Source of the DNA: an uncultured Candidatus Saccharibacteria bacterium
GTDB taxonomy: Bacteria > Patescibacteriota > Minisyncoccia > UBA6257 > UBA11618
Reading direction: 5' to 3'
Assembly: GCA_964432405.1 (NCBI GenBank)
Contig: CAYSNH010000001.1
Span: 150,001-182,000 of the forward strand
DNA: 32,000 nucleotides
In this document: piece after piece, positions 4,931-32,000 of the stretch
Layout of the letters: each line of letters starts with the position of its first letter
Numbering within the stretch: position 1 is the stretch's first letter
Translations under genes and position numbers: made by a program
The notes under the pieces: model-generated
Databases searched by the model: none
Seen by the model: only the letters and a program-made list of their open reading frames with translations
What the model was told of the DNA's origin: nothing

Positions 4931-4934
4931 TTAA

Positions 4935-8974: not shown

Positions 8975-9640
8975 TTATTTTTTATCTTTCTGAATAGAGA
9001 CGCCCCTTTTTTCAATTAGTGCTGGATTATAGAAGTTGTAAAATAGTTCGACGACCTCGTCTTCTGATAAAGGAACGGCTCTCAAGCCAACTCTATTTAA
9101 GCCAGCCGTCACCTGATCTACTCTCAGGTCTAATTGGCGTTTATTTTCTATGAACTGGTCACTTTCAGTCTTCTTTTCTTCCGCCCTCTTCTTTTTAAAT
9201 AATCCAAATAATCCTCCAGCTATTTTTTTACCTATTTTAGGAAGAGCGATCGGATCATAAGGAACTATAATAAAAAAAGTTTTAGACATAATAGGATTTC
9301 TTTCTACAAACGCCTTAACAAAATCTCGATAGTCAGTAATTATATTTTTTAATAAGCTGGTAGGTTCTTTTTGGTGAAGTTTTTTTAATTGATTAAGATA
9401 GTTGTCAATATTAATTTTTCGAGAATGAATTATTTCTTGAATAGAAAAACTAAGAGAGTTCAAGAATTCTTGATAGCTAAAAATAATCAAATTCTTTTCT
9501 TCTTCAGATTTAAGATCGAAGTTAATTCCTGAAACTAATAATATTTTTCTAAAACCACCGTTTTTTAAAACAACCACATCATCTTTAATATGATCAACGC
9601 TGATAATTTCTTGAGTTGCTAAAGATTTTTGTTTGGGCAT
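8975..9640 (-). CDS. VirB4 N-terminal-domain-like protein (separate ORF)
   Basis: 221 aa. QEIISVDHIKDDVVVLKNGGFRKILLVSGINFDLKSEEEKNLIIFSYQEFLNSL resembles the N-terminus of monoderm VirB4 homologues (Tn916 Orf16/TcpF/PrgJ type). Its TAA stop is immediately followed, in the same frame, by the ATG of the 565-aa ATPase ORF. Confidence 0.65.
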   Translation of the reverse strand: MPKQKSLATQEIISVDHIKDDVVVLKNGGFRKILLVSGINFDLKSEEEKNLIIFSYQEFLNSLSFSIQEIIHSRKINIDNYLNQLKKLHQKEPTSLLKNIITDYRDFVKAFVERNPIMSKTFFIIVPYDPIALPKIGKKIAGGLFGLFKKKRAEEKKTESDQFIENKRQLDLRVDQVTAGLNRVGLRAVPLSEDEVVELFYNFYNPALIEKRGVSIQKDKK

Positions 9641-9654
9641 TGTTTTATTATAAT

Positions 9655-10125
9655 TTATCTATAATCAACACGACGAGCCACTTCTCTTTCGCCGGTAGTT
9701 TTTCTAAAAACCTCATATTCATTCTTCATTTTTTTAAGCCTTTGTAAGAAAGGAAGCATAAAAGACTTCTCTCCCTTAATAGGCTTGCTAGAAGTGTCTA
9801 GTTTTAATTTTAAGTTTGATAGTCCTTTTTTAGCAACTTGCTTACCACCCTTTTTTTTCCAGATGTAAATGCGAGGACGCCAATAATAATTAATCATAGA
9901 TGTTAAGAGGGTGAGAAACGATCTGCCATTATATTTAACAAAGGCAAAAGAGGCGCTTATTATAGCTATTAAAATAGTGAACACTAGCCAGAAATAAAAG
10001 TTTAAGACAAAGAAGCTAAAGAAGATTATTAAGAAGCCAGCTGCAACGTATAAAAACTGTTTAATAGTTAGAGGACCAACTATCCTATCTTCTATATCTA
10101 TAAATTGAGGGACTTGAAAATGCAT
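9655..10125 (-). CDS. PrgI-family (VirB3-like) membrane protein
   Basis: 156 aa. N-terminus FQVPQFIDIEDRIVGPLTIKQFLYVAAGFLIIFF, followed by a second TM helix. This is the PrgI pattern, and the gene sits directly upstream of virB4 as in monoderm T4SSs. Confidence 0.65.
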   Translation of the reverse strand: MHFQVPQFIDIEDRIVGPLTIKQFLYVAAGFLIIFFSFFVLNFYFWLVFTILIAIISASFAFVKYNGRSFLTLLTSMINYYWRPRIYIWKKKGGKQVAKKGLSNLKLKLDTSSKPIKGEKSFMLPFLQRLKKMKNEYEVFRKTTGEREVARRVDYR

Positions 10126-10126
10126 A

Positions 10127-10906
10127 TTAACTAAACCATTTAGAATCTGGAATCTTAACTTTGATTTCTCCTTTAGTCGGAGGTATTTGAGGGGTGTTGA
10201 GAGGTGTGAAGAAATTGCTATAATGCACGATTCTTTGAACCTCTACATTATCATCTAAAGAGTTCTCTATCTCAACTCTAACAGGAGCTTCTTCAACAGA
10301 TCTTTCCTTAACAGGTTCTTTATAAGTGAAAGAAGACTTACTCTCTTCTTCTACAGGCTTAATCTCTCCTATTTCTTCATGAAGAACAAATGGTTGATTG
10401 GGAGTAGGTGGTTTTATTTTTTGTTTTGCTAATGGCAGATTGTTAGGAGCCTCAGTTGCTGGCTTATTTTTAACCTTGGTGGGCTTAGCACTTAACTTAG
10501 CAGGATTAGAATATTCTGTTACCGGCGCCGGTTTATCAGGGTAGGATGATAGTTGGTCAGGTGGAGCTGTAGAGTATTCAATCATCTCATGAACATCAAC
10601 GCCTATTTTCTTTAACTCTGCCTCGATTGGCTGCAAGCACTCATCATGAATTTTTTGAGTCACTTCTTTAGCAGCCTCATAATTTATTTTTAGTTGAGAT
10701 CCTAGTTCATTAGCAAAGTCTCGGGGATCTAAATCCTGAACAGCTACTCGAAGAATTAATTTAGAAATAATCCTTTCCTTATCAGACTTCAAGCTAAGCT
10801 TATCATTGAGAGTAGTTATATTTTTTACTATTTCTTCAGAGCTAAGCCAGTCTCTGATTTTATCAGATAATGAAGCGAAGGCGTTTTGTAATGATGTTGT
10901 GACCAT
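10127..10906 (-). CDS. Hypothetical soluble protein with a Pro/Lys-rich C-terminal half (T4SS-like operon)
   Basis: 259 aa. No TM segment. It is the only long ORF at this position and is tightly packed between its neighbours. Confidence 0.55.
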   Translation of the reverse strand: MVTTSLQNAFASLSDKIRDWLSSEEIVKNITTLNDKLSLKSDKERIISKLILRVAVQDLDPRDFANELGSQLKINYEAAKEVTQKIHDECLQPIEAELKKIGVDVHEMIEYSTAPPDQLSSYPDKPAPVTEYSNPAKLSAKPTKVKNKPATEAPNNLPLAKQKIKPPTPNQPFVLHEEIGEIKPVEEESKSSFTYKEPVKERSVEEAPVRVEIENSLDDNVEVQRIVHYSNFFTPLNTPQIPPTKGEIKVKIPDSKWFS

Positions 10907-12785: not shown

Positions 12786-14180
12786 TTATTTACAAGCTTC
12801 TAATTGCTGTTGGGTGCTTGATATTTTTCCAGTAATTTCATTTTGAATCTGATCCTTAGTAGTCTCTTTAGTAGTTTGGAATGATTGAGCAGCTTCTTCA
12901 TCTAATAAATTAACTATATTATTGTAATGATATGCGATAGTTGGAGTATCTTGATAAGTGGGGTTTTGGATATTAAACTTAGCACTTTCTAGCGCCTCGG
13001 TAATCTGTTTATTATTTAACAGCTCTCCATTTAGTTGATTTAAAGCCCTTTGTTCATTTTCTAGGTTGGTTTCTGTAGATATGACTTCTGGTAAGTTGCG
13101 TTGAGCCTGACAGTCTCTTAGTTCAGCCACCATTACCACCAGCGTAGATTGACTTCCTACTAATGTAGCTAGCACCTCTCCTCCAATCTGTCTTGGTAAT
13201 AGGGTCGCGTCAATTTGAGTAATAAATGTTAGTTGGTTGTCCCCAAAAGTTTTTTCATTAGCCTTAACAATAGACAGGCAATTAGTTAAGTCACTACCTC
13301 TCAATCCGGCACACGGGCCAGAACCGCTTATGTAGCCATTAGTTGGTTTGTCAGGAGTGGTTAAGCTAATTAACCCTTCTGCACCGGACCTAATTAATCT
13401 ATTAATTAAAGCATCCGCTATCGCCCCTACATAAACAGCTAAATCATTGGCGTTAATTAGATAGTCGATATCAGAGCCAACAGCTTTTGCAACTAAAGCA
13501 CCAACTTGAGCTCCTGGAGTGGTAATTGTACAGAATCTTCCAGAAGGATCACACTTTCTAGTGCCTAAGAAGCCATTACCAGAAACAGCCTCTAAAATAC
13601 TAGCCTGAGCCTCTTCAGCAATTCGACGATCTCTCTCATTCATAGCCATAAAGACAGCGCCATAATAATTGTTTTGAGGTAACCACATTTCTGAGTAAGC
13701 AAACCAACCACCGTTACGGAAGTCCTCATAAAAGTTTTCAATATTACCAACGATATCATCTAGTGTGCAAGAAACGAAATCAGTAAATCTTGGCGGGTTA
13801 AGAATGCTTAACTGAACTTGGAGGCCGAAAGGAGAGCAGAGCTCTTCTAATCCTAGCTCTAGCGCAAAGTCACCTGCTGCAATATTAGCCGCATCAGATA
13901 AGAAGCCTTTCCAGTCAGTAACAAACAAAGGCTTCCCTCCTCCTTCAACCCAGTTAACTATCTGATCGGTAACCATTGATAACAATCTTCTTTTTAGAGC
14001 TGCCACAGCTACCTCAGTAACTTTTCTAAAGAATGTTTCGTCACTAGCGTGAGTAAGTAAGACGGGGTTAGATTCAAAGACAACATCGCCAACTCCGAAA
14101 ATAGCCTCGGCTTTTTGAACAGGTGTTAAAATCAAGCTAAGTCCGATAATTCCAATTAAAATTTTATTTCTAATATTCAT
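12786..14180 (-). CDS. Secreted Cys-containing hypothetical protein (T4SS-like operon)
   Basis: 464 aa. Signal peptide ending ...VQKAEA. I recognise no family. The start shares one base with the upstream stop (TAATG at 14178..14182). Confidence 0.6.
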   Translation of the reverse strand: MNIRNKILIGIIGLSLILTPVQKAEAIFGVGDVVFESNPVLLTHASDETFFRKVTEVAVAALKRRLLSMVTDQIVNWVEGGGKPLFVTDWKGFLSDAANIAAGDFALELGLEELCSPFGLQVQLSILNPPRFTDFVSCTLDDIVGNIENFYEDFRNGGWFAYSEMWLPQNNYYGAVFMAMNERDRRIAEEAQASILEAVSGNGFLGTRKCDPSGRFCTITTPGAQVGALVAKAVGSDIDYLINANDLAVYVGAIADALINRLIRSGAEGLISLTTPDKPTNGYISGSGPCAGLRGSDLTNCLSIVKANEKTFGDNQLTFITQIDATLLPRQIGGEVLATLVGSQSTLVVMVAELRDCQAQRNLPEVISTETNLENEQRALNQLNGELLNNKQITEALESAKFNIQNPTYQDTPTIAYHYNNIVNLLDEEAAQSFQTTKETTKDQIQNEITGKISSTQQQLEACK

Positions 14181-14962
14181 TAAATACTTATTTGATTAAT
14201 CTTTAATAAATTCAAAACCTTGCTAGTTACCTCCTTAAACCCAGCATCTATTGACGGGTTGTATCTTAAAGCCGCTAAAGCCTCCAGAGGGCTGTCATTG
14301 GCATCCCGCAACTTAGTCATAACTATCTTTTGCTTAATCATTAAAGAGATTTGTTGCTTGTGTATACTGGTAGCTGGCACAGGAACTTCTAATTTATAAA
14401 AATCAGCTATAGCACCGTCATAAGAAGAAGTTATTTTATCAAAATTATTTTTACTAAACTCCTCCCAATTTATCTTCTGTGTAGCGAAGTGCTTGTTGAT
14501 TATTTTTTGGAAAGAACGTAAGTAGTTGGCAAGAGCTTCTTTGTCGGTTCGATGAGAAATATTAATCCTTGCTAATTTAACATCATTAAATCCAAGATCT
14601 ATATTATTAACTTTCTCCAGCTCTTCATTAATTATAGAGTTGGCTATATTTTCTGGATTAAGAGCCTTGGCATATTTCTGATCATCAATATCTACTAAAC
14701 CATTATTATTTAATTCCTTGATATGTTGAGCTATCTTATTACCTAGCTGTTTAGTAGTCTCTTCTGCAACTGGATTAGTTTGACGTGTGTTAAGAGGAAT
14801 ATCCTCATTTAAGGTATTTGAAATATTTGATTTCTCCTGAGCTGTTTTTGGTGGTGATGCTGTTGGAGTCTGAGTCTCTAATGAATTACCAAAAAATATT
14901 AATCCACCCAAAACAAACAGGCCCATAAGCAAAAACAAACCGAATTTACGCACGGATCTCAT
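14180..14962 (-). CDS. N-terminally membrane-anchored hypothetical protein, first gene of the T4SS-like operon
   Basis: 260 aa. TM helix FGLFLLMGLFVLGGLIFF followed by a soluble domain of about 200 aa. That architecture is compatible with a VirB8-like role, but I see no sequence signature. Confidence 0.55.
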   Translation of the reverse strand: MRSVRKFGLFLLMGLFVLGGLIFFGNSLETQTPTASPPKTAQEKSNISNTLNEDIPLNTRQTNPVAEETTKQLGNKIAQHIKELNNNGLVDIDDQKYAKALNPENIANSIINEELEKVNNIDLGFNDVKLARINISHRTDKEALANYLRSFQKIINKHFATQKINWEEFSKNNFDKITSSYDGAIADFYKLEVPVPATSIHKQQISLMIKQKIVMTKLRDANDSPLEALAALRYNPSIDAGFKEVTSKVLNLLKINQISI

Positions 14963-17572: not shown

Positions 17573-18568
17573 ATGCTTAAAAAATTATCCTTTTTAAGGC
17601 AAAAGGCGGCTCTGCCGGCTATTTTTATTACTTGCGCCTCTATCTTCAACCTCTTTATTCTATCAGGTTTTTTCCAGCCTTTTTCTAACAATACGGTTTT
17701 AGGAGGTCCAGATCAAATGGATAATAATCAAGCGCTCTTGTCAGCGGAAACCCCCATTGATTTTGAGCCGGCTAATAATTTAGAGGATTTTGGTGGTTTT
17801 GCTATTTTAGATAGCTCTTATGTTTTAAGTCCAGGTAGCTCCTTGAGTAATACCCTCCCTACCCGAAACGGCTTAATGATTTATCGAGTCCAGTCTGGTG
17901 ACAACTTATCTAGCATAGCTGCAAATTTTGGCGTATCACTTAATACTGTTTTTTGGGCTAACCCCAATTTAAATAAAAGAAGATCAATACAAGTCGGTCA
18001 GGAGATAGTAATCCTACCAGTCTCAGGAGTTAAACATGAGGTTCAAGAAGGAGAAACCCTTATCACTATAGCCTCTCTCTACAATGTTAACCCAGATCAT
18101 ATTTTAAAATATAATAAACAAATTGTGGCGGGTAGAAGTATTATCATTCCTGGCGCTAAGCCAACTAAAAAAACTACCCATTACACCCAATCTAAAAAGT
18201 TACCACGTCTAGCTGGACATCTTGTTGTCCCAACTACCGGTTGGAACTGGGGGCAGCTTCATTATAATAATGCCGTTGATATTGCTAATGCTTGCAACAC
18301 ATCAATTTATGCCGCCGCTGAAGGCTTGGTGGTTAAGGTTCGATCCGGTTGGAATGGTGGTTATGGAAATTACGTCATCATAGAACATCCTAATGGCATC
18401 TCTACCCGCTACGCTCATTTGCAAAAATCTACCGTGTCAGTTGGTCAGTATGTTGTTCAGGGTGATCAAATTGGTCAAATGGGAAGTTCAGGTAACACTC
18501 ATGGACCAACCGGTTGTCACCTTCACTTTGAAGTTGTGGGCGCTGCTAATCCATTCGCTAAAAGATAA
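17573..18568 (+). CDS. Secreted peptidoglycan hydrolase: two LysM repeats plus an M23 metallopeptidase domain
   Basis: 331 aa. LysM repeats YRVQSGDNLSSIAANFGVSLNTVFWANP and HEVQEGETLITIASLYNVNPDHILKYN. M23 motifs HPNGISTRYAHL and GPTGCHLHFEV. Confidence 0.88.
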   Translation: MLKKLSFLRQKAALPAIFITCASIFNLFILSGFFQPFSNNTVLGGPDQMDNNQALLSAETPIDFEPANNLEDFGGFAILDSSYVLSPGSSLSNTLPTRNGLMIYRVQSGDNLSSIAANFGVSLNTVFWANPNLNKRRSIQVGQEIVILPVSGVKHEVQEGETLITIASLYNVNPDHILKYNKQIVAGRSIIIPGAKPTKKTTHYTQSKKLPRLAGHLVVPTTGWNWGQLHYNNAVDIANACNTSIYAAAEGLVVKVRSGWNGGYGNYVIIEHPNGISTRYAHLQKSTVSVGQYVVQGDQIGQMGSSGNTHGPTGCHLHFEVVGAANPFAKR

Positions 18569-18570
18569 TA

Positions 18571-18595
18571 AAAAACCCCAGAGTTGCCTCTGGGG
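18571..18595 (-). terminator. Intrinsic terminator of the GC-rich orphan gene
   Basis: Reverse strand reads CCCCAGAG-GCAA-CTCTGGGG followed by TTTTTTATTATC. This is an 8-bp GC-rich stem (18576..18583 / 18588..18595) with a GNRA loop and a T-run. Confidence 0.8.
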
Positions 18596-18609
18596 GGCGG
18601 CTGACAAGA

Positions 18610-19602
18610 TCAGCCTTTGCTGGCGGTAGCTCCAAGACCGCCGGGTAGTCTTGATGGAGGAAAGACTTCCTCCATCATTTTTTTACTGACCTCACTTGTG
18701 TGAGCCTCAGCCTTGCTCTGGTTAAAAGTGTCAATCTCATTTTGAGCGCTCTTTCTGCCCAAGGTCGGATCCAGGTTGGGATGGAACTTCCTCCCATTTA
18801 TGAGCTGAGCATTCTTTTGAAGATAGGCCGCTTTACGAGCTCTCCCCAAATGACCTTTGGTCATGTTGTCGCGAACCTCTCCAATCATCAGCTCGTCATC
18901 TCGGAAGTAGTAGAAATGGTGGCCATGGAAAGGATTGGCTACCAGCTTGTAACCGCGGTCAATAGGCTGTCGGCCAATCACAAACGATCCAGTAGTTGCT
19001 CTTTGCCCGTTGCGCAAAACAAACAGAGCATCTTCAACATTTCTGTTGACACCAGTAGCGAGAAAGTTCTCATACTTGATGACAAAAGCTTCCACTGGTT
19101 GAAATCGAGGTGCTGTGTCCGGACAGAAACGGCATTGTTCCATTTCGCCATCAACATGAACTAGGAAGTCCAAGATTTCTTCATCAAGCTGCTCGACGCG
19201 AAGCTTGAGCTCGACAGATTCTTTTGAAGTTCCCATTTCAAGCAGCACTTCTTCAGGGGAGCGTCCTTTGAAAACGGTCTCCCGACAAACCACTTCATGT
19301 GGTTTGAAGTGCTTGTCTTCCTCGATTTTTTTAGCGACGACATCTTGTAGTCGATCGCTAAAAAATTCTCTGATGGGCTTTGTGTGCTGAACACAGTTAA
19401 GCCAAACAAAGTCGATGGGGCTCAAAAGAGTCCCCGGTCCACCAGCCAGCCAATTTCCCACGCGTCTGAGCTCATTGATTGGCAAGAAGCCTTTTCTGGC
19501 AGTACCAAACTCATCCAGCCTTTCGTTGTACAAGACAAAAGCCTTCTCGGACAGGATACTTGGCCTGTCAATCAATAGATCTTTTTTTGAAGTTGTCGTC
19601 AT
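18610..19602 (-). CDS. Orphan protein of unknown function in a compositionally foreign (about 50% G+C) segment
   Basis: The track ORF 18610..19611 begins at a GTG. ATG 19602..19600 is preferred because GGAGAG (19616..19611) lies 8 nt upstream, giving 330 aa. It is the longest stop-free frame here, and its orientation agrees with the flanking promoter and terminator. I recognise no motif. Confidence 0.75.
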   Translation of the reverse strand: MTTTSKKDLLIDRPSILSEKAFVLYNERLDEFGTARKGFLPINELRRVGNWLAGGPGTLLSPIDFVWLNCVQHTKPIREFFSDRLQDVVAKKIEEDKHFKPHEVVCRETVFKGRSPEEVLLEMGTSKESVELKLRVEQLDEEILDFLVHVDGEMEQCRFCPDTAPRFQPVEAFVIKYENFLATGVNRNVEDALFVLRNGQRATTGSFVIGRQPIDRGYKLVANPFHGHHFYYFRDDELMIGEVRDNMTKGHLGRARKAAYLQKNAQLINGRKFHPNLDPTLGRKSAQNEIDTFNQSKAEAHTSEVSKKMMEEVFPPSRLPGGLGATASKG

Positions 19603-19681
19603 GACAAACACTCTCCGTAATAAGGTGCTAAAAATTTTGGGCGGCTAAATTACAATAGCTCTAAAAACCCAATCAGAAACT

Positions 19682-19709
19682 ATTTTACACCAAATTTTTT
19701 AAATGTCAA
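19682..19709 (-). promoter_or_regulatory. Near-consensus sigma70-type promoter TTGACA-N16-TAAAAT driving the orphan gene
   Basis: Reverse strand reads TTGACA TTTAAAAAATTTGGTG TAAAAT. The -35 is at 19709..19704 and the -10 at 19687..19682. This leaves a leader of roughly 70 nt that contains the SD. Confidence 0.6.
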
Positions 19710-19711
19710 AT

Positions 19712-19730
19712 AAAAACAGCCCTACAGGGC
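19712..19730 (-). terminator. Short hairpin plus T-run downstream of tRNA-Ile
   Basis: Reverse strand reads GCCC-TGTA-GGGC then TGTTTTTATTT. The stem is only 4 bp, so this is weak. Confidence 0.4.
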
Positions 19731-19740
19731 CATTTAAATG

Positions 19741-19812
19741 TGGGCATGGGAAGGATCGAACTTCCGACCTCGTCTTTATCAGAGACGCGCTCTACCACTG
19801 AGCTACATGCCC
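19741..19812 (-). tRNA. tRNA-Ile, anticodon GAU, with no encoded CCA
   Basis: Reverse complement folds as GGGCATG TA GCTC AGTGGTA GAGC G CGTCT CTGATAA AGACG AGGTC GGAAG TTCGATC CTTCC CATGCCC A. All four stems pair perfectly, the T-loop is TTCGATC, and the anticodon is GAT. Confidence 0.95.
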
Positions 19813-19833
19813 TAAATTAAACAAGCTAAACAA

Positions 19834-20034
19834 CTATCGTTTTAGTTGCTTAGCTTTATCGAGGTTAAATTTAACAATTTCTTCTGATTTTGACAAGTCT
19901 CCTCCAAATGCCTTGCTAGCTCTATTAGCTAAAAATGACATCGATCGACTGACATAAAAAATTATTAATGCAAAAATAGTGATGCCAATTATCCAGAAGA
20001 TCAACTCTTTTTTATTGTGAAAAAACTTTCCCAT
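19834..20034 (-). CDS. Small single-pass membrane protein
   Basis: 66 aa. TM helix LIFWIIGITIFALIIFYV. It overlaps the upstream gene by 23 nt. No family recognised. Confidence 0.45.
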   Translation of the reverse strand: MGKFFHNKKELIFWIIGITIFALIIFYVSRSMSFLANRASKAFGGDLSKSEEIVKFNLDKAKQLKR

Positions 20035-20533
20035 TGATTATTGATTTAAACTTTTTTTCATCTCCGACCAAGTTAAAGGAATCAAAGCTGACTACATAAG
20101 GACTTCTTTCAATACTACTAACAAAATTTAACCAATTAACAAAAGGGGCGTCAGCAGTTATTGAGAAGCTGAGATAGCCAGGCTTAGTTTCTGAGCCTAA
20201 AACTTCTCTGCCAAAAGAAAACCCTACATCAACATCATTTTTTTTAGCTAGTGAATTTATACTACGAGGAAAATCGATCAATTTATCTGATATTGGTAGA
20301 GTCGTAATTAAAGATAATTTTTCAACGCGCGCCTTTTCAGAATCTTTCTGTAAAGAAGCTAAAGAATCAATAGCCTTATAACGAAGAGCTACTTTATTTT
20401 TTAATTCAACTACCTTAGCAGTTCTTCTATTTATGTCGGCACGCAATAAAGCAATTAAAATTAACAAGACTACTACAACCGCTGCTATAACACTTAAATT
20501 AACAGTCATTACTCTTTTGAAGTCTTTTGGCAT
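20012..20533 (-). CDS. PilO/GspM-like bitopic membrane protein (architecture only)
   Basis: 173 aa. TM helix, then a coiled-coil segment (AKVVELKNKVALRYKAIDSLASLQKDSEKARVE), then a small C-terminal domain. The assignment rests on architecture, not on a motif. Confidence 0.35.
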   Translation of the reverse strand: MPKDFKRVMTVNLSVIAAVVVVLLILIALLRADINRRTAKVVELKNKVALRYKAIDSLASLQKDSEKARVEKLSLITTLPISDKLIDFPRSINSLAKKNDVDVGFSFGREVLGSETKPGYLSFSITADAPFVNWLNFVSSIERSPYVVSFDSFNLVGDEKKFKSIINGKVFSQ

Positions 20534-20552: not shown

Positions 20553-21218
20553 ATGACAGCAAATGAGATTACTTATTTAAAACAATCAGATTCGAATTTT
20601 CCTCAATCATTAAGAGAGATTTCTTCTTGTCCAGGTATTTTGTATTTTAAAGGCAATAAAGATTTGTTTAATTATAAAAAAAAGATTGCCATTGTTGGGA
20701 CTCGTAAGGCGTCTAAAGCTGGCCAAGCTATTGCTAGTCAATTAGCTAAAGACTTATCTCAGCAAGATGTTGTTGTTGTAAGTGGGCTTGCTTCAGGAAT
20801 TGATAGAGCGGCTCATGAAGGTTGTTTAAAAGGTGTTGCCAAGACAATTGCCGTTCTTGGTCACGGCCTTCACTTAATTTATCCTGATGAGAATAAGGAG
20901 TTGGCTTTTCAAATAATACGCAATGATGGGCTGATAATATCAGAGTATCAGTCTGGGCATGCTATAGCTCCTCATCAATTTTTAGAGAGGAATCGTTTAA
21001 TTAGCGGGCTTTGTCAGGGTATAATAATTATCGAAGCTCCTAAGCGCTCTGGCGCACTCAATACCGCTAATCATGCCTTAGAGCAAAATAGAGACGTCTT
21101 CGTTGTTCCTGGCTCAATTCTTGATGCTAATTATACTGGTTCTAATAATCTGATTAAGCAGGGCGCTTATCCAATTACCTCTGCGCAAGATGTTTTAGAT
21201 GCCATGAATTTTAAATAA
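20553..21218 (+). CDS. dprA: DNA processing protein DprA/Smf, Rossmann-fold core only
   Basis: 221 aa. Conserved stretches IAIVGTRKAS, VVVSGLASGIDRAAHEG, IAVLGHGL..IYPDEN, ISEY, FLERNRLISGL and SGALNTA..A.EQNRDVFVVPG. Confidence 0.9.
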   Translation: MTANEITYLKQSDSNFPQSLREISSCPGILYFKGNKDLFNYKKKIAIVGTRKASKAGQAIASQLAKDLSQQDVVVVSGLASGIDRAAHEGCLKGVAKTIAVLGHGLHLIYPDENKELAFQIIRNDGLIISEYQSGHAIAPHQFLERNRLISGLCQGIIIIEAPKRSGALNTANHALEQNRDVFVVPGSILDANYTGSNNLIKQGAYPITSAQDVLDAMNFK

Positions 21219-23293: not shown

Positions 23294-24322
23294 TTAATTA
23301 CTCATCGCATCAACCGCTTGTAAGAAGCCTTTGTAGGTAGTAGAGATTATTAGATAGTCATCAATAAGTCCGTAGTTAAATGAAGCTATCGTTCCGCTAC
23401 CAAAGGAAGAGTAGCGACTGGTATTGTTATCTCCTACCGGGCCAGTTTTAAAGTCGCTAGGATCAGTGGCTGGCGGAGTTAGAAAAACATTTTTAATAGA
23501 AGCTCCCTCGATTTCTTCTAATATTTTTTTCATACTAACATAGTCATAATCAGCTGTTTCTGGACTTCTAAGTCGCACGATATATCCAGGCCATGTTCCG
23601 TAACCCAACTTTGAAGTGTTGTAATAAAGGAAACTGGTAAAGTCTTTTTCGAAAGAATTCTTTAGCATGTTTCCAGCATCAGAGTCTTTAAGCTCTGGTA
23701 GCAAGGTAGTTAAAAAGTCATGACTGTTAGCTGGATTGCCTCCAATAGAGAAAGTCACCTCTTTTAATCCCTCTCCTTCATTATTTGCTAGAACATTACT
23801 TCCTTCATTTTGTAAGGTGGTTAAGATAGCTATTAAGTTATAATCACTAACACTAAGAGAGCTAATATTGTCAGCTGAATTACCAAAAGCTGATACGTGA
23901 GTTATGGCTGGAACGATAGGCTCTTCTACTGTCGTGTCTGTATCAGACTCTTCTACAGCAGTCTCTTCAGGAAATAGAAGTGGGCCAGCATATTTATAGC
24001 CAAGTAGGGCTACGCCAATTATTAAAACTATTACCAATAACCAGACTAACCATCGTCGAGCACCTCCTTTGGCTTCCATCTCTACCACCCCTGGCGAACT
24101 GTATTCATTAGGAGAAGTTGTTTCTGGGGGAGTGATAGGCCCACCCATATCATCAATCTCAGAGGGCTTAATAATCTCTGGCTCAGGCATACCACCACCA
24201 GTTTCTTCGACTGATTTTACATCAGACTCTAAAGACCTCATTTTTATCTCGGGTTGAGGTGGTGGAGGCGGACCACCTTGTGAAGAATCTTGTAAAGGAT
24301 TCTTTTCTTGTTCTCCGTTCAT
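23294..24322 (-). CDS. Bitopic membrane protein with a Pro-rich N-terminal region
   Basis: 342 aa. GGPPPPPQPE, then TM helix WLVWLLVIVLIIGVALLGY, then an external domain of about 230 aa. No family recognised. Confidence 0.6.
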   Translation of the reverse strand: MNGEQEKNPLQDSSQGGPPPPPQPEIKMRSLESDVKSVEETGGGMPEPEIIKPSEIDDMGGPITPPETTSPNEYSSPGVVEMEAKGGARRWLVWLLVIVLIIGVALLGYKYAGPLLFPEETAVEESDTDTTVEEPIVPAITHVSAFGNSADNISSLSVSDYNLIAILTTLQNEGSNVLANNEGEGLKEVTFSIGGNPANSHDFLTTLLPELKDSDAGNMLKNSFEKDFTSFLYYNTSKLGYGTWPGYIVRLRSPETADYDYVSMKKILEEIEGASIKNVFLTPPATDPSDFKTGPVGDNNTSRYSSFGSGTIASFNYGLIDDYLIISTTYKGFLQAVDAMSN

Positions 24323-26459: not shown

Positions 26460-27002
26460 TTACTTTTTATTTGTTCTAGTTTTAGTTATTCTACCAATCT
26501 TCTTTTTCAAAATCATTTTAGGATTATTGTCTAAATCAATAAACTCCTCAGCCGCCTCCTTTAAACGACCAGAGGAGCTTCTACCAAACGCAGCCACTTC
26601 AACTCCTTTGCCTAATCCCCATTTGAGATAATCAACTAAAGGAACAAAATCACCATCTCCAGTCACCAGGACGATTACATCCAGAGAATCAGCCATTCTA
26701 ACAGCATCGACAGCCATACCAACATCCCAGTCGGCTTTTTTCATGCCACCAGGAAAGATTTGAATGTCTTTCATTCTTAATTCAATGCCACTTTTTTCTA
26801 AGGCATCAAAAAAAGAAGATTCACCGACAGTACTTTCTGTCTTGACTACATACCCGATTGATCTAATTAATCTTCGGCCAGCAACCAACTCTTTCATTAG
26901 CTCTTTATAGTTAACACGAGCCTGAAAAAGATTTTTAGATGAGTGGTATAAATTTTGAATATCAATAAAAATACCCACTCTCTGCTCTTTGTTTTTAATC
27001 AT
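26460..27002 (-). CDS. NYN-domain (LabA-like) predicted ribonuclease
   Basis: 180 aa. Acidic motifs VGIFIDIQNL, ADWDVGMAVDA and VLVTGDGDFVPLV match the NYN/LabA pattern. Confidence 0.8.
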   Translation of the reverse strand: MIKNKEQRVGIFIDIQNLYHSSKNLFQARVNYKELMKELVAGRRLIRSIGYVVKTESTVGESSFFDALEKSGIELRMKDIQIFPGGMKKADWDVGMAVDAVRMADSLDVIVLVTGDGDFVPLVDYLKWGLGKGVEVAAFGRSSSGRLKEAAEEFIDLDNNPKMILKKKIGRITKTRTNKK

Positions 27003-27269: not shown

Positions 27270-28364
27270 TTATTTTTTTAATTTAAGAAAAATTCTTTTC
27301 TCTTCAGGTTTTATTAATTCAATAGTGAAATTATATTCTTCGTCGACTTTTAATTGATTTTTCATTTCTTCAACTCCTCCAAATTCAGAAACATGAATAA
27401 GTCCCTGAATATTTTGGTCTAAGCTAATAAAGGCGCCAAATGGATTAAAGCGGTTAACCTTACCACTCACATCCTGACCTACCTCATAAGTCTTTTCTAC
27501 TTCATCCCAAGGATTTTCTTTTAGAGCCTTGAGAGAAAGAGATACACGACCATCTTTAATCTCAACAATCTTTGCCTTTACTAAATCATTAATCTTGATA
27601 ATCTCTTTTGGATTTTCAATTAAGCGGTGATCAAGCTCAGAAATATGTATCAATCCCTCAATATCTGGATCATTAGCAAACTTCATGAAAACTCCGAAGT
27701 CAGCTACACCGGTAATAATGCCATCGATGACATCCCCTTCTTTATAGCTTACTAACTTCGCTTTTATATTTTCTGTTGTAAGGGCTTTTTCAGAGATGAT
27801 CAGCTTGTTAGCTCTAGAATTAACATCAATCACCTTAACTTTTAAGGTCTCACCAACAAGCTTCTCTAGCTCTTCTTGAATTTTTGATCGATCACCATCA
27901 TTAATCTGAGGATAGTTATCGACACTTAATTGAGAAACTGGCAAAAAGGCCTTTAAATTATTAATATCTCCTACCAATCCACCAGAGTTAGCCATATTCA
28001 TTTTTATCTCAATAGTTTCTTCACTATCTTTAAGCTCTTTCATCTCCTCCCAGGCTTTTTGCTTGTGAGTTTCTTTAAGAGATAGCTCAGCATAGCCTTC
28101 ATCGTTCTCTACTTCTATGACCTTGGCTAAAGTAGTACCTCCTTTAGAGAGCTCTTTGATAGTGTCTTGGGCGTTAATAAGCTCTAGACCATAGATGATT
28201 CCAGTGCCACGACGACCAAGGTCAAAAAAAGCGGCCTTATTAGTTTTGCCAATATAAGTTGCTTCTACCAACTCATTTTGTTTCAAAACAGCAATAGCTG
28301 CCGGGTCATTTTTTAAAATGTTAGCCAGTGGAGACCTGGCTTTTTTAGAAATATTAATTGACAT
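27270..28364 (-). CDS. Multi-S1-domain RNA-binding protein (ribosomal protein S1-like)
   Basis: Four S1-like repeats, for example [20 protein letters not shown] and [20 protein letters not shown]. The track start at 28415 is a TTG lying inside the predicted -35 box. ATG 28364 (MSINISKK...) is preferred, giving 364 aa. Confidence 0.8.
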
Positions 28365-28386
28365 AATAATCAGAAAATATATCAAA

Positions 28387-28415
28387 ACTATAGTGGTTTT
28401 ATTTAAAAAAAGCAA
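28387..28415 (-). promoter_or_regulatory. Candidate promoter of the S1-rpsO-NYN-pnp operon: TTGCTT-N17-TATAGT
   Basis: The -35 is at 28415..28410 and the -10 at 28392..28387 on the reverse strand. Confidence 0.45.
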
Positions 28416-28430
28416 GCTTTATTTAATAAG

Positions 28431-28457
28431 ATAAAAGAAAAGACCCGTTTCCGGGTC
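28431..28457 (-). terminator. Intrinsic terminator of the GC-rich mini-gene
   Basis: Reverse strand reads GACCCG-GAAA-CGGGTC followed by TTTTCTTTTATC. This is a GC-rich stem with a GNRA tetraloop and a T-run. Confidence 0.8.
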
Positions 28458-28463
28458 CTTGAA

Positions 28464-28652
28464 TTAATAATCTTCAGTATGACCAATAGCGCTTGAGGGC
28501 ATGCTAAGGGTTGGGATTATGGGCACAACCCAAGGTTTTGTGCCTTGATCAACGCACGCTCTTCGAGCCTCTTCTCTAGCTGTCCAACTGGCCCTAATTT
28601 TTAAGCATGCAGCGTGAATTTCTTCTGGTGTTGGTGATGGCCTCTCTGTCAT
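28464..28652 (-). CDS. 62-aa orphan protein in a second compositionally foreign segment
   Basis: Sequence MTERPSPTPEEIHAACLKIRASWTAREEARRACVDQGTKPWVVPIIPTLSMPSSAIGHTEDY. The SD AAAGGA (28665..28660) lies 7 nt upstream of ATG 28652. The 28-aa N-terminal extension in the track runs through the predicted promoter, so I discard it. Confidence 0.55.
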   Translation of the reverse strand: MTERPSPTPEEIHAACLKIRASWTAREEARRACVDQGTKPWVVPIIPTLSMPSSAIGHTEDY

Positions 28653-28707
28653 TTGCGAATCCTTTCTTTTTAAAGTTCTATAATCTCTCAAAGAGACGTG
28701 TTCATAT

Positions 28708-28736
28708 ATAATAGAACAAAACAATGAAAAAAGCAA
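28708..28736 (-). promoter_or_regulatory. Candidate promoter of the mini-gene: TTGCTT-N17-TATTAT
   Basis: The -35 is at 28736..28731 and the -10 at 28713..28708 on the reverse strand. This leaves a leader of about 50 nt that contains the SD. Confidence 0.45.
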
Positions 28737-28764
28737 CTTGTTTTACATCAAAAAAAGTGCTAGA

Positions 28765-29640: not shown

Positions 29641-32000
29641 ATGGCTAAGGAAAAAGAAATAAAAAAATCAAAAATAGAAGATATAGAAATTACCGAAGAA
29701 TTACGTGAGTCATACCTAGACTACGCGATGTCGGTTATCGTCTCTCGAGCTCTGCCAGATGTGCGTGATGGTCTTAAGCCAGTACAGCGACGCATTCTTT
29801 GGGCTATGTGGGATAGTGGTTTGAATCCAGGTGCTAAGTTGAGAAAATCAGCTAATGTTGTTGGTGAGGTTTTAGGGCGTTACCACCCTCATGGTGATAA
29901 TGCGGTATATGATGCGATGGCTAGAATGGTACAAGACTTCTCTCTTCGCTACCCTCTTATAACTGGACAAGGTAACTGGGGTTCTATTGAAGGAGATTCT
30001 CAAGCTGCTATGCGTTATACGGAGTGTAAGATGGCTAGAGTTTCTGAAGAGCTCTTGTTTGATGTTGAAAAAGAGACTGTTGATTGGCAAGAGAACTATG
30101 ACGCTAGTCGAAAAGAGCCCGTTTGTTTACCAGCCAGACTACCCCACCTTCTGTTAAACGGTGCTATGGGTATTGCTGTTGGTATGGCTACCAACATTCC
30201 ACCTCACAGCTTAGATGAGGTAGCGGATGCAGTCATTCATTTAATTGATAAGCCAAAAGCTACTGGTGAAGACTTAATGAGCTTTATTAAAGGGCCCGAT
30301 TTCCCAACCGGTGGAATTATTTATGATAAAAAAGCTATTACCGCCGCCTATCTTTCTGGTCGAGGTGGTATTACTTGTAGGGCTAAGACTGAAATTAAAG
30401 AAGACCGTATTGAAATTACAGAGGTCCCTTATCAAGTTAATGTTTCTGACTTGCTTGTTAAGATTGCTAATTTGGTAATGGAAAAAAAGATTGATGGTAT
30501 TAGAGATGTTCGTAATGAATCAGATAAAGATGGCTTGAGTATTGTGATTGAACTCAAGAAAGACACTATCCCCCAAAGAGTTCTAAATCAATTATTCAAA
30601 TTTACTGAACTACAAAAAGATTTTCATCTTAATATGATTGCCTTGGCTAATGGTTTGCAGCCACAAGTCATGTCAGTGATCGATATTCTTAAATATTACT
30701 TAGAACATCGCCAAATTGTTATTCGAAGGCGTACAGAGTTTGATCTTCGTAAGGCTAAAGAAAGAGCTCATATTCTAGAAGGGCTTTCCAAGGCTTTGTC
30801 AGTGATTGATAAGGTTATTGCTACGATCAAAAAATCTAAAAATAGAGATGATGCTCGTAAGAATTTAATTACCAAGTTTAAATTCTCCGAGATTCAGGCT
30901 AATGCAATTCTAGATATGAGATTGCAGAGTTTAGCTGCTCTTGAGAATAAAAAAATTAATGACGAGCTTAAAGAAAAGAAAGCGATCATTAAAGAATTAG
31001 AGCTTATCTTAAAAGATCCTAAAAAAATTCTTAAAATTATTAAAGATGACTTAAAGAGTCTTAAGGCTAAATATGGTGGCGAGCGAAGAACTCGAGTTGT
31101 TGCCACGGGCCTAAAGTCTTTAGGCGATGCCGACCTTATTAAGTCTGAAGAAACTATTATTACCCGCTCAAGAGGTAGTTATATTAAAAGAGTTTCTCCA
31201 ACTGCATATAAATCTCAACATCGAGGTGGTAAAGGGCTAATTGGCTCAGATGTTGCAGAAGAAGATTTCATTGAGCATCTCCTTATCGCTAATACTCATG
31301 ACAACATACTCTTCTTTACAGACAAAGGGCGCGTTTTCCAAACCAAGGTTTGGGAGATTCCTTCTTCAAGTAGAACTGCTAAAGGAAAATTAATTCAAAA
31401 CTTCTTAGAAATCCCTCCTACAGAAAAAGTTAGTGCCATGGTTACCTATCAAGATAAGTCTGATGGTTACTTAATCATGGCTACCAAAAAAGGAGTCATC
31501 AAAAAAACCTCTCTAAAAGATTTTGATAAGGTGAGGCGGACCGGAATCATTGCCATCTCTCTAAAGAAAGATGATCTCTTGAGTTGGGTTAGACTGTCTT
31601 CTGGTAAAGACAATGTTATTTTAACCACTCGACAAGGTCAGGCTATTCGCTTTAAAGAATCTCAAGTCAGAGCTATGGGTAGAACTGCCGCTGGAGTAGC
31701 CGCTCTTCGTCTCAAGGAGGATGATGAAGTTAGTTCACTTAATATTATTAATGACGAACACATTAAGAAGGCTAAATTATTGGTGGTAATGGATAGGGGG
31801 TATGGTAAGCAAACGAGTATTGCACAGTATAAGATTCAGAAACGTGGCGGTCTTGGTATAAAAACTGCTAGAATAACTAGTAAGACCGGCCAATTGATTT
31901 CAGCTCACTTAATCAATGGTGAAGAAGACCTCTTCGTCTTGTCTGCAAAGGGTCAGATGATTAGAACAAAGATTAGTTCTGTTCGTTCTGCTAGTCGTGC
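29641..32000 (+). CDS. gyrA: DNA gyrase subunit A (continues past the right edge)
   Basis: Not in the track because it is truncated. My translation from ATG 29641 reads [60 protein letters not shown]...[53 protein letters not shown], which includes the active-site Tyr region. Confidence 0.95.

What the first reader, a model, noticed from the sequence alone, without database searches (positions are those of the whole stretch)
18571..19740. Self-contained GC-rich orphan gene cassette beside tRNA-Ile
The 1-kb gene at 18610..19602 differs sharply in composition from its surroundings. Positions 18961..19020 have 30 G+C of 60, whereas 20041..20100 have 19 of 60. As a by-product, long stop-free ORFs appear in several frames on both strands. 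The cassette has a complete expression kit of its own: TTGACA-N16-TAAAAT, a leader of about 70 nt, GGAGAG 8 nt before the ATG, and an 8-bp GC stem with a GCAA loop plus a T-run as terminator. The native genes I inspected mostly lack an SD and often have the -10 right next to the ATG. The cassette lies directly 3-prime of tRNA-Ile(GAU), a classic site for foreign DNA, yet there is no integrase and I found no repeat of the tRNA 3-prime end. The 330-aa product matches no family or catalytic motif I know. It looks like a moron-like horizontally acquired single-gene module, possibly a defence, anti-defence or host-interaction factor.
Basis: partly seen in the sequence, partly recalled or inferred. 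Interest (0 to 1): 0.7.

Follow-up and report, generated by a model that had tools for sequence, protein, structure and literature searches.

The report
Ancestral GC-rich orphan gene beside T4SS
The odd-looking GC-rich gene is real, but it is an old, vertically inherited, fast-evolving orphan gene at the edge of the type IV secretion block of a Patescibacteria (CPR) genome, not recently imported DNA, and it is worth attention because its GC-rich codons and its own expression signals have been kept for a very long time.

Summary
Gene X (18610..19602, minus strand, 330 aa) has 47% GC against 36% for the rest of the window, and its GC3 z-score is +6.5. It has a near-consensus promoter, a leader of about 72 nt, the only clear Shine-Dalgarno among 29 window ORFs, and a strong terminator.

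The reading as a horizontally acquired moron is not supported. Orthologues sit at the same tRNA-Ile/M23 junction in at least six independent assemblies. Remote homologues (27-34% identity) still lie next to the LysM-M23/UvrD genes. Every one is GC-richer than its own genome. Synonymous sites are saturated and show no drift toward AT. A UvrD tree shows clade-wise vertical inheritance. No homologue turned up in phage, plasmid or viral collections.

The protein matches no known family or fold. The AF2 model (pLDDT 76) shows a helical half with HTH-like units, a small beta domain, a long helix and a disordered LxGGLG tail.

In about 25 related Paceibacteria species the same slot holds other GC-rich, SD-led orphan genes that mostly end in Gly/Arg/Lys tails. 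The slot lies at the end of the conserved T4SS-KsgA-UvrD-M23 block.

Best guess, which is inference: X is a strongly expressed, rapidly diverging accessory or cargo protein linked to the T4SS. Its molecular function remains untested.

The parts
19740..19812 (-). tRNA-Ile(GAU), immediately upstream of the cassette on the same strand
   Evidence: ARAGORN and Rfam RF00005 at 74.5 bits. It is invariant in the relatives.
19714..19735 (-). Hairpin plus T-run after the tRNA. It looks like a terminator and insulates the cassette from tRNA transcription.
   Evidence: Terminator scan. The stem sequence differs between the window (GGCCCTGTAGGGCT) and its relatives (CAGCGCTAAAGCGCTG), but a hairpin is kept.
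19682..19709 (-). Sigma-70-type promoter TTGACA-N16-TAAAAT
   Evidence: 11 of 12 consensus matches. The -35 box is invariant and the -10 box nearly so in L001, L002, L053 and L054. Equivalent near-consensus promoters occur in remote homologues L004, L005, L006, L056 and L047.
19603..19676 (-). 5' leader of about 72 nt, with a 5'-proximal hairpin (UUGGG...CCCAA enclosing an inner stem) and a second stem that touches the SD
   Evidence: RNA fold gives -15.4 kcal/mol, z = -1.3. The ATTGGGTTT motif is invariant across the window, L001, L002, L054, L004 and L056. The 4 consensus pairs show no covariation, so the structure is plausible but not proven.
19611..19616 (-). Shine-Dalgarno GGAGAG, 8 nt before the ATG
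   Evidence: It is the only canonical SD among 29 window ORFs. It is conserved as GGAG(A/G)A in relatives and as AGGAGG or AAGGAGG in remote homologues.
18610..19602 (-). Gene X coding sequence, 330 aa. An orphan protein with conserved motifs GNWLAGGPG, HEVVCRETVF, DGExExCxFC, FQPVEAF, TTGSFV, PFHG, KGHLGxARK and a C-terminal LxGGLG.
   Evidence: ORF. Purifying selection: dN 0.22-0.33, pS 0.48-0.71, with an excess of third-position changes. Family alignments. No Pfam, NCBIfam, PHROG or PDB match. AF2 model with pLDDT 76.
18652..18677 (.). Perfect 11-bp inverted repeat inside the 3' end of the coding sequence (encoding MMEEVFPPS). On the + strand it is followed by T7, so it may be the terminator of the convergent M23 gene and/or a 3' mRNA hairpin.
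   Evidence: I9. The stem is kept in L002, L053 and L054 with paired changes (GGAGG/CCTCC against GAGG/CCTC) and is degraded in L052.
18576..18595 (-). Intrinsic terminator of gene X: 8-bp stem with 6 G-C pairs, GCAA loop and a T-run. It lies between the convergent X and M23 genes.
   Evidence: The stem is nearly invariant in L002, L052, L053 and L054.
17573..18568 (+). LysM-Peptidase_M23 gene, the conserved convergent neighbour that anchors the slot. Probably the VirB1-like cell-wall hydrolase of the T4SS block.
   Evidence: Pfam domains on record. 84-87% aa identity in near relatives and 61-67% in remote ones. PMC12102498 reports that VirB1-like homologues, some carrying M23 or LysM domains, are associated with virB4 in Paceibacteria.

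Best explanation
Shown:
- Gene X is a genuine protein-coding gene under purifying selection.
- It belongs to a very small Patescibacteria-restricted family (Ca. Harrisonbacteria/Paceibacteria-type genomes).
- It has been inherited vertically at the distal end of the conserved block T4SS genes - KsgA/RsmA - UvrD - LysM-M23.
- Its amino-acid divergence from near relatives is about 3-5 times that of its flanking genes (38-48% against 8-16%).
- Its GC-rich codon usage and its private expression kit have persisted well beyond synonymous-site saturation. The kit is a near-consensus promoter, a leader of about 72 nt with a 5' hairpin, a strong SD and a strong terminator.
- These features set it apart from a genome that is AT-rich and almost free of SD sequences. 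They are therefore maintained features, not marks of recent import.

Inferred:
- The kit resembles that of very strongly expressed, long-lived mRNAs, so X is probably an abundant protein.
- Four things point to an accessory or cargo protein of the Patescibacteria T4SS that acts at the host interface, possibly by binding nucleic acid: its position at the edge of the T4SS block; its rapid divergence; the lack of a signal peptide; and the family-wide disordered C-terminal LxGG(L/G)G tail, which is extended by Arg/Lys runs in most members.
- In this reading, divergence is driven by host adaptation.
- The window's own protein has lost the basic extension of the tail.
For: Real coding sequence: dN/dS pattern and third-position excess.

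Rarity: 3 clusters among 5.8 billion proteins and 7 representatives among 1.84 billion.

Synteny:
- The order tRNA-Ile - X - M23 - UvrD - RsmA is the same in L003 and L051-L056, and the parts of it carried by the short contigs L001 and L002 agree. Flanks are 84-92% identical while X is 52-62% identical.
- X is still at this junction in L056, where UvrD is only 58% identical.
- X is next to M23/UvrD in L004, L005, L006, L037 and L038.
- The UvrD tree shows a clade-specific distribution.

Persistent composition:
- X is above its locus GC in all 11 family loci, by +0.016 to +0.183.
- Polarised substitutions give AT->GC 142 against GC->AT 121.

Expression kit:
-.
- Across 40 related loci, GC-rich ORFs carry an SD in 18 of 26 cases against 38 of 338 for other ORFs, p = 1e-10.

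T4SS context:
- T4SS pilin, VirB4-like, PrgI and TraC-like genes lie in the window.
- The block g619-g464-g260-RsmA-UvrD-M23 is conserved in about 28 loci.
- PMC12102498 places the Paceibacteria T4SS near dnaA/ksgA, finds VirB1-like homologues associated with virB4 there, and finds no relaxase in most genomes, so the substrates are unknown.

C-terminal tails: net charge of the last 20 aa is +2.4 for the GC-rich ORFs against -0.13 for other ORFs, p = 3e-5. GG occurs in the last 30 aa in 9 of 26 against 22 of 303.

Structure: AF2 pLDDT 76, with only weak sub-domain resemblance to sigma-4/KorA-type HTH units and to OB/SSB folds.
Against: - There are no expression, localisation or translocation data. 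High expression is inferred from sequence signals only.
- The window protein's own tail is not basic (net charge 0 over the last 20 aa).
- No secretion signal is known for monoderm-type or CPR T4SS, so the comparison with the Agrobacterium/Bartonella-type positive tail rests on my own knowledge and on analogy.
- S1 and PNPase in the same window show no GC3 rise. If GC3 reflects expression level, it is not a general rule in this genome.
- Linkage to the T4SS is by position only, and housekeeping genes (KsgA, UvrD) lie in between.
- The fold searches gave no significant hit, so nucleic-acid binding is only a lead.
Confidence: 0.35

Rival explanations
1. X is a cytoplasmic nucleic-acid-binding protein, either a regulator or a nucleoid/RNA-associated factor. 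It would be built from HTH-like three-helix units, a Cys/His knuckle, a small beta barrel and a Gly/basic tail. It would act inside the CPR cell, for example on T4SS, competence or DNA-processing genes, and would not be exported.
For: - Sigma-4, KorA and FixJ-type HTH domains recur as the best local structural matches, with probabilities of 0.1-0.3 over about 50 residues, in three separate searches.
- SSB/OB folds appear as weak hits.
- The unit PEEV..G(V/T)SKE.VE..L is repeated two further times in P0009 and P0010.
- D151-G152 and C157 are invariant, C160 is nearly invariant and H149 is conserved in most members (HxDGExxxCxxC).
- Basic Gly-rich tails occur across the family.
- The neighbours are DNA-handling genes: UvrD, DprA and TopA.
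Against: - No match reaches significance (best E 0.035-0.3).
- Regulators rarely combine a consensus promoter, a long leader and the strongest SD in the genome.
- Divergence of 38-48% while neighbours differ by 8-16% is unusual for a housekeeping DNA-binding protein.
- This reading does not explain the GC-rich codon usage.
Confidence: 0.2
2. X is a recently acquired foreign single-gene module (moron-like), inserted next to tRNA-Ile from a GC-richer, SD-using donor and not yet ameliorated.
For: - GC3 z-score of +6.5, no TTA codons, and SD-led translation unlike the native genes.
- Location next to a tRNA.
- An empty M23/tRNA-Ile junction exists in one distant relative, L042.
- The tRNA-Ile/X gap is plastic: L051 and L052 carry an extra 376-aa gene there.
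Against: - The position and the GC excess are the same in every relative of the clade and in remote homologues.
- Identity of X falls in step with identity of the flanks, and inheritance is clade-wise.
- pS of 0.65-0.71 means synonymous sites have turned over, yet GC3 stays high and there is no GC->AT excess.
- No integrase and no att repeat.
- No homologue in IMG/VR, phage or plasmid records.
Confidence: 0.05
3. X is a single-gene defence or anti-defence factor kept in a variable slot. Its fast evolution would reflect an arms race with CPR phages or with host immunity.
For: - A single-gene cassette that diverges quickly.
- A weak PADLOC hit to candidate PDC-S04, E = 0.002.
- The same slot holds different orphan families in different clades.
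Against: - The PADLOC hit is 15.8 bits and occurs in only 1 of 10 family members.
- There are no defence genes nearby, and the slot lies in a core, origin-proximal block rather than a defence island.
- The slot's families follow host phylogeny rather than being shuffled.
Confidence: 0.1
4. The GC excess is a by-product of a local recombination hotspot through GC-biased gene conversion. X would be a diversifying locus flanked by conserved genes, and the composition would say nothing about function.
For: - The X coding sequence is the most diverged segment of the locus: 63-69% nt identity against 79-83% for the flanks.
- Both C-ending and G-ending codons are raised.
- Substitutions are slightly biased towards GC.
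Against: - GC3 offsets of +0.2 to +0.35 (up to 0.73 in family A and 0.94 in sister families) seem to me too large for such an effect. This rests on my own general knowledge, not on a tool result.
- It does not explain the co-occurring SD, leader and consensus promoter.
- X identity tracks flank identity, with no sign of mosaic exchange.
Confidence: 0.1
5. The junction is an assembly chimera that joins DNA from a GC-richer organism to the CPR contig.
For: A sharp composition step at both borders.
Against: - The same junctions occur in independent assemblies from different samples and pipelines (L003, L055, L001, L002, L051-L054).
- The borders fall at a conserved terminator and a conserved promoter.
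- The gene diverges in step with its flanks.
Confidence: 0.01

Closest known systems
Phage morons and tRNA-adjacent genomic islets (single-gene HGT cassettes)
   Same: A single gene with its own promoter and terminator, placed between conserved genes, next to a tRNA, with composition unlike the surrounding DNA.
   Different: It is inherited vertically for a very long time at a fixed position. There is no prophage, integrase or att repeat, and no relatives on mobile elements. It is GC-richer rather than AT-richer than its genome, and the deviation is at equilibrium rather than decaying.
Effectors of VirB/D4-type T4SS with positively charged, disordered C-terminal signals (Agrobacterium VirE2/VirF, Bartonella Beps). 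This comparison rests on my own knowledge.
   Same: It is linked to a T4SS block, has no Sec signal peptide and diverges rapidly. The family has a disordered C-terminal tail with a GG motif, extended by Arg/Lys runs in most members and in the sister GC-rich families.
   Different: The Patescibacteria T4SS is of the monoderm conjugation type (PMC12102498), for which neither effectors nor a signal are known. There is no homology to any effector. The window protein's tail is not basic. Translocation is untested.
Highly expressed bacterial genes with stabilising 5' UTRs (for example ompA and S-layer genes). This comparison rests on my own knowledge.
   Same: A near-consensus promoter, a long leader with a hairpin near its 5' end, a U-rich tract and strong SD in the wider family, and a strong intrinsic terminator.
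   Different: There are no expression data. The protein has no signal peptide or structural-protein features. The GC-rich coding sequence in an AT-rich genome has no counterpart in those examples.
Sigma-70 region 4 / KorA-type helix-turn-helix domains
   Same: These are the best local structural matches of the helical half of the AF2 model, over about 50 residues in three searches.
   Different: The E-values are 1-5 and the probabilities at most 0.3. There is no sequence-profile match (Pfam, PDB). The overall architecture, with a Cys/His knuckle, a beta domain and a long helix, matches nothing.

Membership tests
Integrase-mediated genomic island at a tRNA gene | Tyrosine or serine integrase gene at the border | tested here: not met
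   Every ORF of at least 100 aa was either scanned with Pfam or has Pfam hits on record, and none is an integrase.
Integrase-mediated genomic island at a tRNA gene | Direct repeat of the tRNA 3' end (attL/attR) flanking the insert | tested here: not met
   The repeat finder on 18300..20100 found only a 13-nt, 92% match to the T-arm, and it lies inside the coding sequence (D6). Nothing flanks the cassette.
Integrase-mediated genomic island at a tRNA gene | Patchy presence among close relatives, with empty sites | tested here: not met
   X is present at the same junction in all 8 sampled relatives of the clade. The only empty junction, L042, is in a distant lineage with UvrD 52% identical.
Recently transferred (un-ameliorated) gene | Composition decaying towards that of the host genome | tested here: not met
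   pS is 0.48-0.71 between relatives, yet all keep raised GC3. Polarised changes give AT->GC 142 against GC->AT 121.
Phage moron | Located inside a prophage or phage genome, with homologues in phages | tested here: not met
   The context is chromosomal and origin-proximal: dnaA, rnpA, yidC, gyrA and the T4SS genes. There was no hit in IMG/VR, INPHARED phages, PHROGs or BFVD.
T4SS-translocated effector (VirB/D4-type C-terminal signal) | Genetic linkage to a T4SS | tested here: met
   X lies about 10 kb from the VirB4-like, PrgI, TraC-like and pilin genes, at the end of a block conserved in about 28 loci.
T4SS-translocated effector (VirB/D4-type C-terminal signal) | Disordered, positively charged C-terminal tail | tested here: inconclusive
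   At family and slot level the feature is present: +2.4 against -0.13 net charge, p = 3e-5. The tail is disordered in the AF2 model (318-330, pLDDT below 50). However, the window protein's last 20 aa have net charge 0.
T4SS-translocated effector (VirB/D4-type C-terminal signal) | T4SS- and coupling-protein-dependent translocation into a target cell | not testable with these tools
   This needs a reporter-fusion or proteomic experiment.
PADLOC candidate defence protein PDC-S04 | Significant profile match across family members | tested here: not met
   E = 0.002 and 15.8 bits in the window protein only. The other 9 of 10 family members do not match.
Structured non-coding RNA mistaken for a gene | Match to an RNA family, or no coding signal | tested here: not met
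   Rfam finds only the tRNA. The codon-position substitution pattern and indels in multiples of three show that it codes for protein. Local mRNA structure exceeds synonymous shuffles (z = -4.2), but control genes reach -3.1.

The most novel reading that the evidence does not exclude
The slot downstream of the T4SS-linked M23 gene may hold the long-sought cargo of the Patescibacteria type IV secretion system.

In the most radical version, the cassette is tuned for expression in the host bacterium rather than in the CPR cell. Its consensus sigma-70 promoter, strong SD, intrinsic terminator and GC-rich codons are all foreign to a leaderless, SD-poor, AT-rich genome. The gene itself, as DNA or mRNA, would then be delivered to the host, in the manner of T-DNA.

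The milder version is that these GC-rich, SD-led proteins with basic tails are the translocated protein effectors. I put that version at about 0.25-0.3.
Probability: 0.04. Interest if true: 0.95.

Novelty: new variant of a known kind. Interest (0 to 1): 0.6.

Why it matters
Patescibacteria (CPR) make up a large share of bacterial diversity, and most appear to live on other cells. Their conserved chromosomal T4SS is thought to matter for that lifestyle, but what it transports is unknown, because most genomes have no relaxase (PMC12102498).

This work points to a concrete, sequence-defined set of candidates. These are one gene X family plus at least four other orphan families, all in the same slot at the end of the T4SS-KsgA-UvrD-M23 block. 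They can be recognised by three unusual and measurable marks: GC3 far above the genome, SD-led translation in an SD-poor genome, and Gly/Arg/Lys C-terminal tails. That makes the substrate question testable by expression and translocation assays.

Separately, the finding is a clean counter-example to a common rule. A GC3 offset that survives synonymous saturation in a vertically inherited gene shows that atypical composition does not always mean recent horizontal transfer. Some selective or conversion force must be holding the composition in place.

Tried and rejected
Database and homology searches that gave nothing:
- Pfam, NCBIfam, PHROGs, PADLOC and PDB sequence searches with the single protein and with the 10-member family. 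Only sub-threshold noise appeared: sopT E = 0.045, GH3 E = 0.59, PDC-S04 E = 0.002 in one member.
- Rfam on the whole window found only the tRNA.
- Scans of viral contigs, phage records and plasmid records for homologues found none.

Structure work:
- The first AF2 run, with 5 sequences, was too poor to use (pLDDT 53).
- The second run, with 10 sequences, reached pLDDT 76. Foldseek against the PDB and BFVD gave no hit below E = 0.03.

Other tests:
- Flanking att-like repeats: none.
- RNAalifold on six leaders gave only 4 pairs, none covarying, so I do not claim a proven leader structure.
- Codon bias from high expression, as a general rule in this genome, is rejected because S1 and PNPase have ordinary GC3.
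- Excess mRNA structure in the coding sequence is suggestive (z = -4.2) but not unique, since controls reach -3.1.
- hhalign between the slot's families links only A with E (94.7%). A-B1 (24.9%) and B2-C (13.9%) are unproven, so I do not claim that all slot genes are homologous.
- Literature searches found no earlier description of these genes.
Full report
**1.

The ORF at 18610..19602 (minus strand, 330 aa from the ATG at 19602) is the compositional outlier of the window.
- Its GC is 0.474 against 0.360 for the rest.
- GC3 is 0.483 against 0.284 +/- 0.031 for 26 other ORFs, z = +6.5.
- None of its 31 Leu codons is TTA (background 46%), and ATC, GTC, TAC and CTG are two- to six-fold enriched.

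The expression signals are as described:
- promoter TTGACA-N16-TAAAAT at 19709..19682, 11 of 12 matches;
- GGAGAG 8 nt before the ATG;
- terminator CCCCAGAG-GCAA-CTCTGGGG followed by a T-run at 18595..18576;
- tRNA-Ile(GAU) at 19740..19812 directly upstream.

The remark about native genes is also right. Among 29 ORFs only X has a canonical SD, and many others have a TATAAT-like box 5-12 nt before the ATG, which suggests leaderless mRNAs. The antisense ORFs are the usual shadow of a gene that avoids A-ending codons.

**2. It is a real gene for an unknown protein**
- Against its nearest homologues, third codon positions change most (0.35-0.50 against 0.19-0.25 at second positions).
- dN is 0.22-0.33 and pS 0.48-0.71, and indels are in multiples of three.
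- No Pfam, NCBIfam, PHROG or PDB sequence match exists for the protein or for a 10-member family profile.
- A PADLOC hit (PDC-S04, 15.8 bits) is confined to one member.
- The family is tiny: 3 clusters among 5.8 billion proteins and 7 representatives among 1.84 billion.

**3. It is ancestral, not imported**

Near relatives:
- Homologues of 52-62% identity lie at exactly the same junction, in the order PilO-like p173 - tRNA-Ile - X - M23 - UvrD - RsmA. This is seen in independent metagenome assemblies, with the short contigs carrying the parts of the order they span (L001, L002, L003, L051-L055).
- Their flanking genes are 84-92% identical to the window's. X therefore diverges about 3-5 times as much as its neighbours at the amino-acid level, and its coding sequence is the least conserved segment of the locus. 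Nucleotide identity is 63-69% for the X coding sequence, 70-77% for its promoter and leader, and 79-83% for the flanks.

Remote homologues (27-34% identity) keep the linkage:
- L056 has the identical gene order, with UvrD 58% identical.
- L005 and L006 have X convergent with M23.
- L004 has X beside UvrD-M23.
- L037 and L038 also have X directly after M23.
- In L006 the tRNA-Ile-p173-DprA-TopA block is inverted, yet X stays with M23.

Phylogeny and mobility:
- A neighbour-joining tree of UvrD places the X-bearing genomes in one clade, with a second, basal pair (L037/L038) whose sister L042 has an empty 361-bp M23/tRNA-Ile junction.
- Identity of X falls in step with identity of the flanks.
- There is no integrase in the window and no att-like repeat.
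- No homologue was found in IMG/VR, phage or plasmid collections.
- The organisms are Patescibacteria of the Ca. Harrisonbacteria/Paceibacterota type.

**4. The GC excess is a maintained property**
- In all 11 family loci X is GC-richer than the rest of its locus, by +0.016 to +0.183, with GC3 up to 0.73. This holds across genomes whose own GC ranges from 36% to 49%.
- Synonymous sites between the window and its closest relatives are saturated (pS 0.65-0.71), so a transferred gene would have ameliorated by now.
- Parsimony-polarised changes on six branches give AT->GC 142 against GC->AT 121, which shows no decay. This method has known biases, and UvrD also shows an AT->GC excess, so I use it only to say that amelioration is not visible.
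- S1 and PNPase have ordinary GC3, so a general link between expression level and GC3 is not evident in this genome.

**5. The expression kit is conserved and exceptional**
- The -35 box, the -10 box, the motif ATTGGGTTT at the start of the leader and the SD are conserved in near relatives.
- Remote homologues have equivalent near-consensus promoters, 60-90-nt leaders, a U-rich tract and AGGAGG.
- Leaders fold into a 5'-proximal hairpin in the window, L004, L005 and L056. The consensus has only four invariant pairs and no covariation, so the structure is plausible but unproven.
- The terminator between X and M23 is almost invariant.
- A second hairpin inside the 3' end of the coding sequence (18652..18677, followed by T7 on the + strand) keeps pairing through coupled changes. 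It may terminate the convergent M23 gene.

**6. X is one case of a wider pattern**
- In 45 species-level genomes carrying the M23 orthologue, the strongest GC-rich island almost always lies 0-3 kb downstream of M23 and never upstream.
- The island holds minus-strand ORFs of about 200-450 aa. They fall into family A (X), its remote relative E (hhalign 94.7%), and families B1, B2, C and D with no demonstrable homology to A. None has a Pfam domain.
- GC3 in these ORFs reaches 0.8-0.96.
- They carry an SD in 18 of 26 cases against 38 of 338 for other ORFs (p = 1e-10).
- They have near-consensus promoters and long leaders.
- Their C-termini are more basic (+2.4 against -0.13 net charge, p = 3e-5) and more often contain GG.
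- Each family is confined to one host clade.
- Upstream, the block g619-g464-g260-RsmA-UvrD-M23 is conserved in about 28 loci. In the window it continues into PrgI, TraC-like, VirB4-like and T4SS-pilin genes.
- PMC12102498 describes this chromosomal, origin-proximal, monoderm-type T4SS of Patescibacteria near dnaA and ksgA. It notes that VirB1-like homologues, some with M23 or LysM domains, are associated with virB4 in Paceibacteria. It also stresses that a relaxase is absent from most genomes, so the system's substrates are unknown.

**7. Structure**

With 10 sequences AF2 gives pLDDT 76 and pTM 0.69. The model has:
- a well-defined helical region (residues 15-150);
- a Cys/His-bearing segment and a small beta domain (about 150-230);
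- a long helix (283-313);
- a disordered tail.

**8. Interpretation**

Shown: X is an ancestral, vertically inherited, rapidly diverging orphan gene. It has a private, conserved expression kit and a maintained GC-rich coding sequence, and it sits at the distal edge of the T4SS block.

Inferred: the kit suggests strong expression. The position, the fast divergence, the lack of a signal peptide and the family's C-terminal LxGG(L/G)G tail with a basic extension suggest an accessory or cargo protein of the T4SS working at the host interface, perhaps binding nucleic acid (confidence 0.35).

Rivals:
- an intracellular DNA- or RNA-binding regulator (0.2);
- a defence or anti-defence factor (0.1);
- GC-biased conversion at a recombination hotspot as the sole cause of the composition (0.1);
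- recent HGT (0.05);
- an assembly chimera (0.01).

The cause of the GC excess remains unexplained. The most radical reading the data allow is a cassette tuned for expression in the host cell (about 0.04).

**9. Verdict**

The finding is more interesting as a persistent, clade-wide class of GC-rich, SD-led orphan genes attached to the Patescibacteria T4SS block. To my knowledge, and on the basis of three literature searches, this class has not been described.

Noticed in passing
L007 7416-8309, L008 7337-7990, L009 8036-8887, L010 7962-8795, L012 7669-8319, L013 8787-9581, L014 9481-10206, L017 8858-9733, L022 7426-8157, L024 8528-9250, L026 4506-5183, L028 8924-9877, L033 8668-9600, L039 8276-9043, L040 9214-9924, L044 7489-8226, L016 2930-3655, L020 5899-6984 (all minus strand): In about 25 related Paceibacteria genomes the slot 0-3 kb downstream of the LysM-M23 gene holds other GC-rich orphan ORFs. 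They are +0.10 to +0.23 above locus GC, with GC3 up to 0.96. They belong to at least four families unrelated to X by sequence, have no Pfam domain, and mostly have an SD, a long leader, a consensus promoter and Gly/Arg/Lys C-terminal tails. Each family is confined to one host clade.
   Followed up: partly
L013 about 9640-9700, L014 about 10265-10325, L020, L033, L040 (upstream of the B2-family genes): The promoters of the B2 family share an almost identical spacer, TTGACA(A/G)GGGTCTTTTTTTATG(C/A)TA(G/A)TAT, although the proteins are only about 25% identical. This suggests an operator or factor-binding site within the promoter.
   Followed up: no
window, all ORF starts (for example 8975-9640, 14180-14962, 20012-20533, 20553-21218, 23294-24322, 26460-27002): The genome is essentially free of SD sequences, and many genes have a TATAAT-like box 5-12 nt before the ATG. 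This implies widespread leaderless mRNAs. Across related loci only 11% of ordinary ORFs have an SD-like motif.
   Followed up: partly
window 28464-28652 (-), with a terminator-like hairpin at about 28441-28461: A second small GC-rich (47%) ORF of 62 aa (MTERPSPTPEEIHAACLKIRASW...), with AAGGA 8 nt upstream and its own terminator. It has no Pfam match and lies in the gap between the S1 gene and the next + strand gene.
   Followed up: partly
window 568-765 and 2197-2216, against about 28300-28740: DnaA-box-like sites cluster on both sides of dnaA (5 within 568-765). However, the cumulative GC-skew minimum and the switch of gene orientation lie about 26 kb away at roughly 28.3-28.7 kb. Between the two, almost all genes are on the minus strand, so the position of the origin is ambiguous.
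   Followed up: partly
L052 1394-2524 and L051 about 500-1640: An extra 376-aa gene of normal GC is inserted between tRNA-Ile and X in two contigs. Its product is Cys-rich and has an N-terminal hydrophobic segment. The gene is absent in L001, which carries the same X protein cluster, and in the window. The tRNA-Ile/X gap is therefore variable at strain level.
   Followed up: partly
L042 6864-7226: An empty site: M23 is followed after 361 bp by tRNA-Ile(GAU), then p173-DprA-TopA, with no X homologue. This lineage is sister to L037/L038, which do carry X.
   Followed up: yes
L006 7033-12706: A rearrangement: the TopA-DprA-p173-tRNA-Ile block is inverted relative to the window while X stays convergent with M23. 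X is therefore linked to M23 rather than to the tRNA.
   Followed up: yes
window 18652-18677: A perfect 11-bp hairpin inside the 3' end of the X coding sequence, followed by T7 on the + strand. The stem is kept in relatives through coupled nucleotide and amino-acid changes. It may be the terminator of the convergent M23 gene, embedded in the X coding sequence.
   Followed up: partly
L010 2642-5937: The UvrD orthologue matches in three separated pieces (2642-3808, 4886-5386, 5641-5937), with an insert of about 1 kb. This could be an intein, an inserted gene or a pseudogene.
   Followed up: no
window 18610-19602 (strongest at coding-sequence nt 150-375, about 19227-19452): The X mRNA folds more stably than versions with shuffled synonymous codons (z = -4.2 summed over 150-nt windows). 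Two of eight control genes (p173, NYN) reach about -3, so this is suggestive only.
   Followed up: partly
L014 11828-12671, L033 11935-12913, L047 6451-7253, window 29691-29929: Further GC-rich patches that do not belong to the M23 slot. The one in the window is the 5' end of gyrA. The others contain no long ORF in the listing and could be RNA genes.
   Followed up: no
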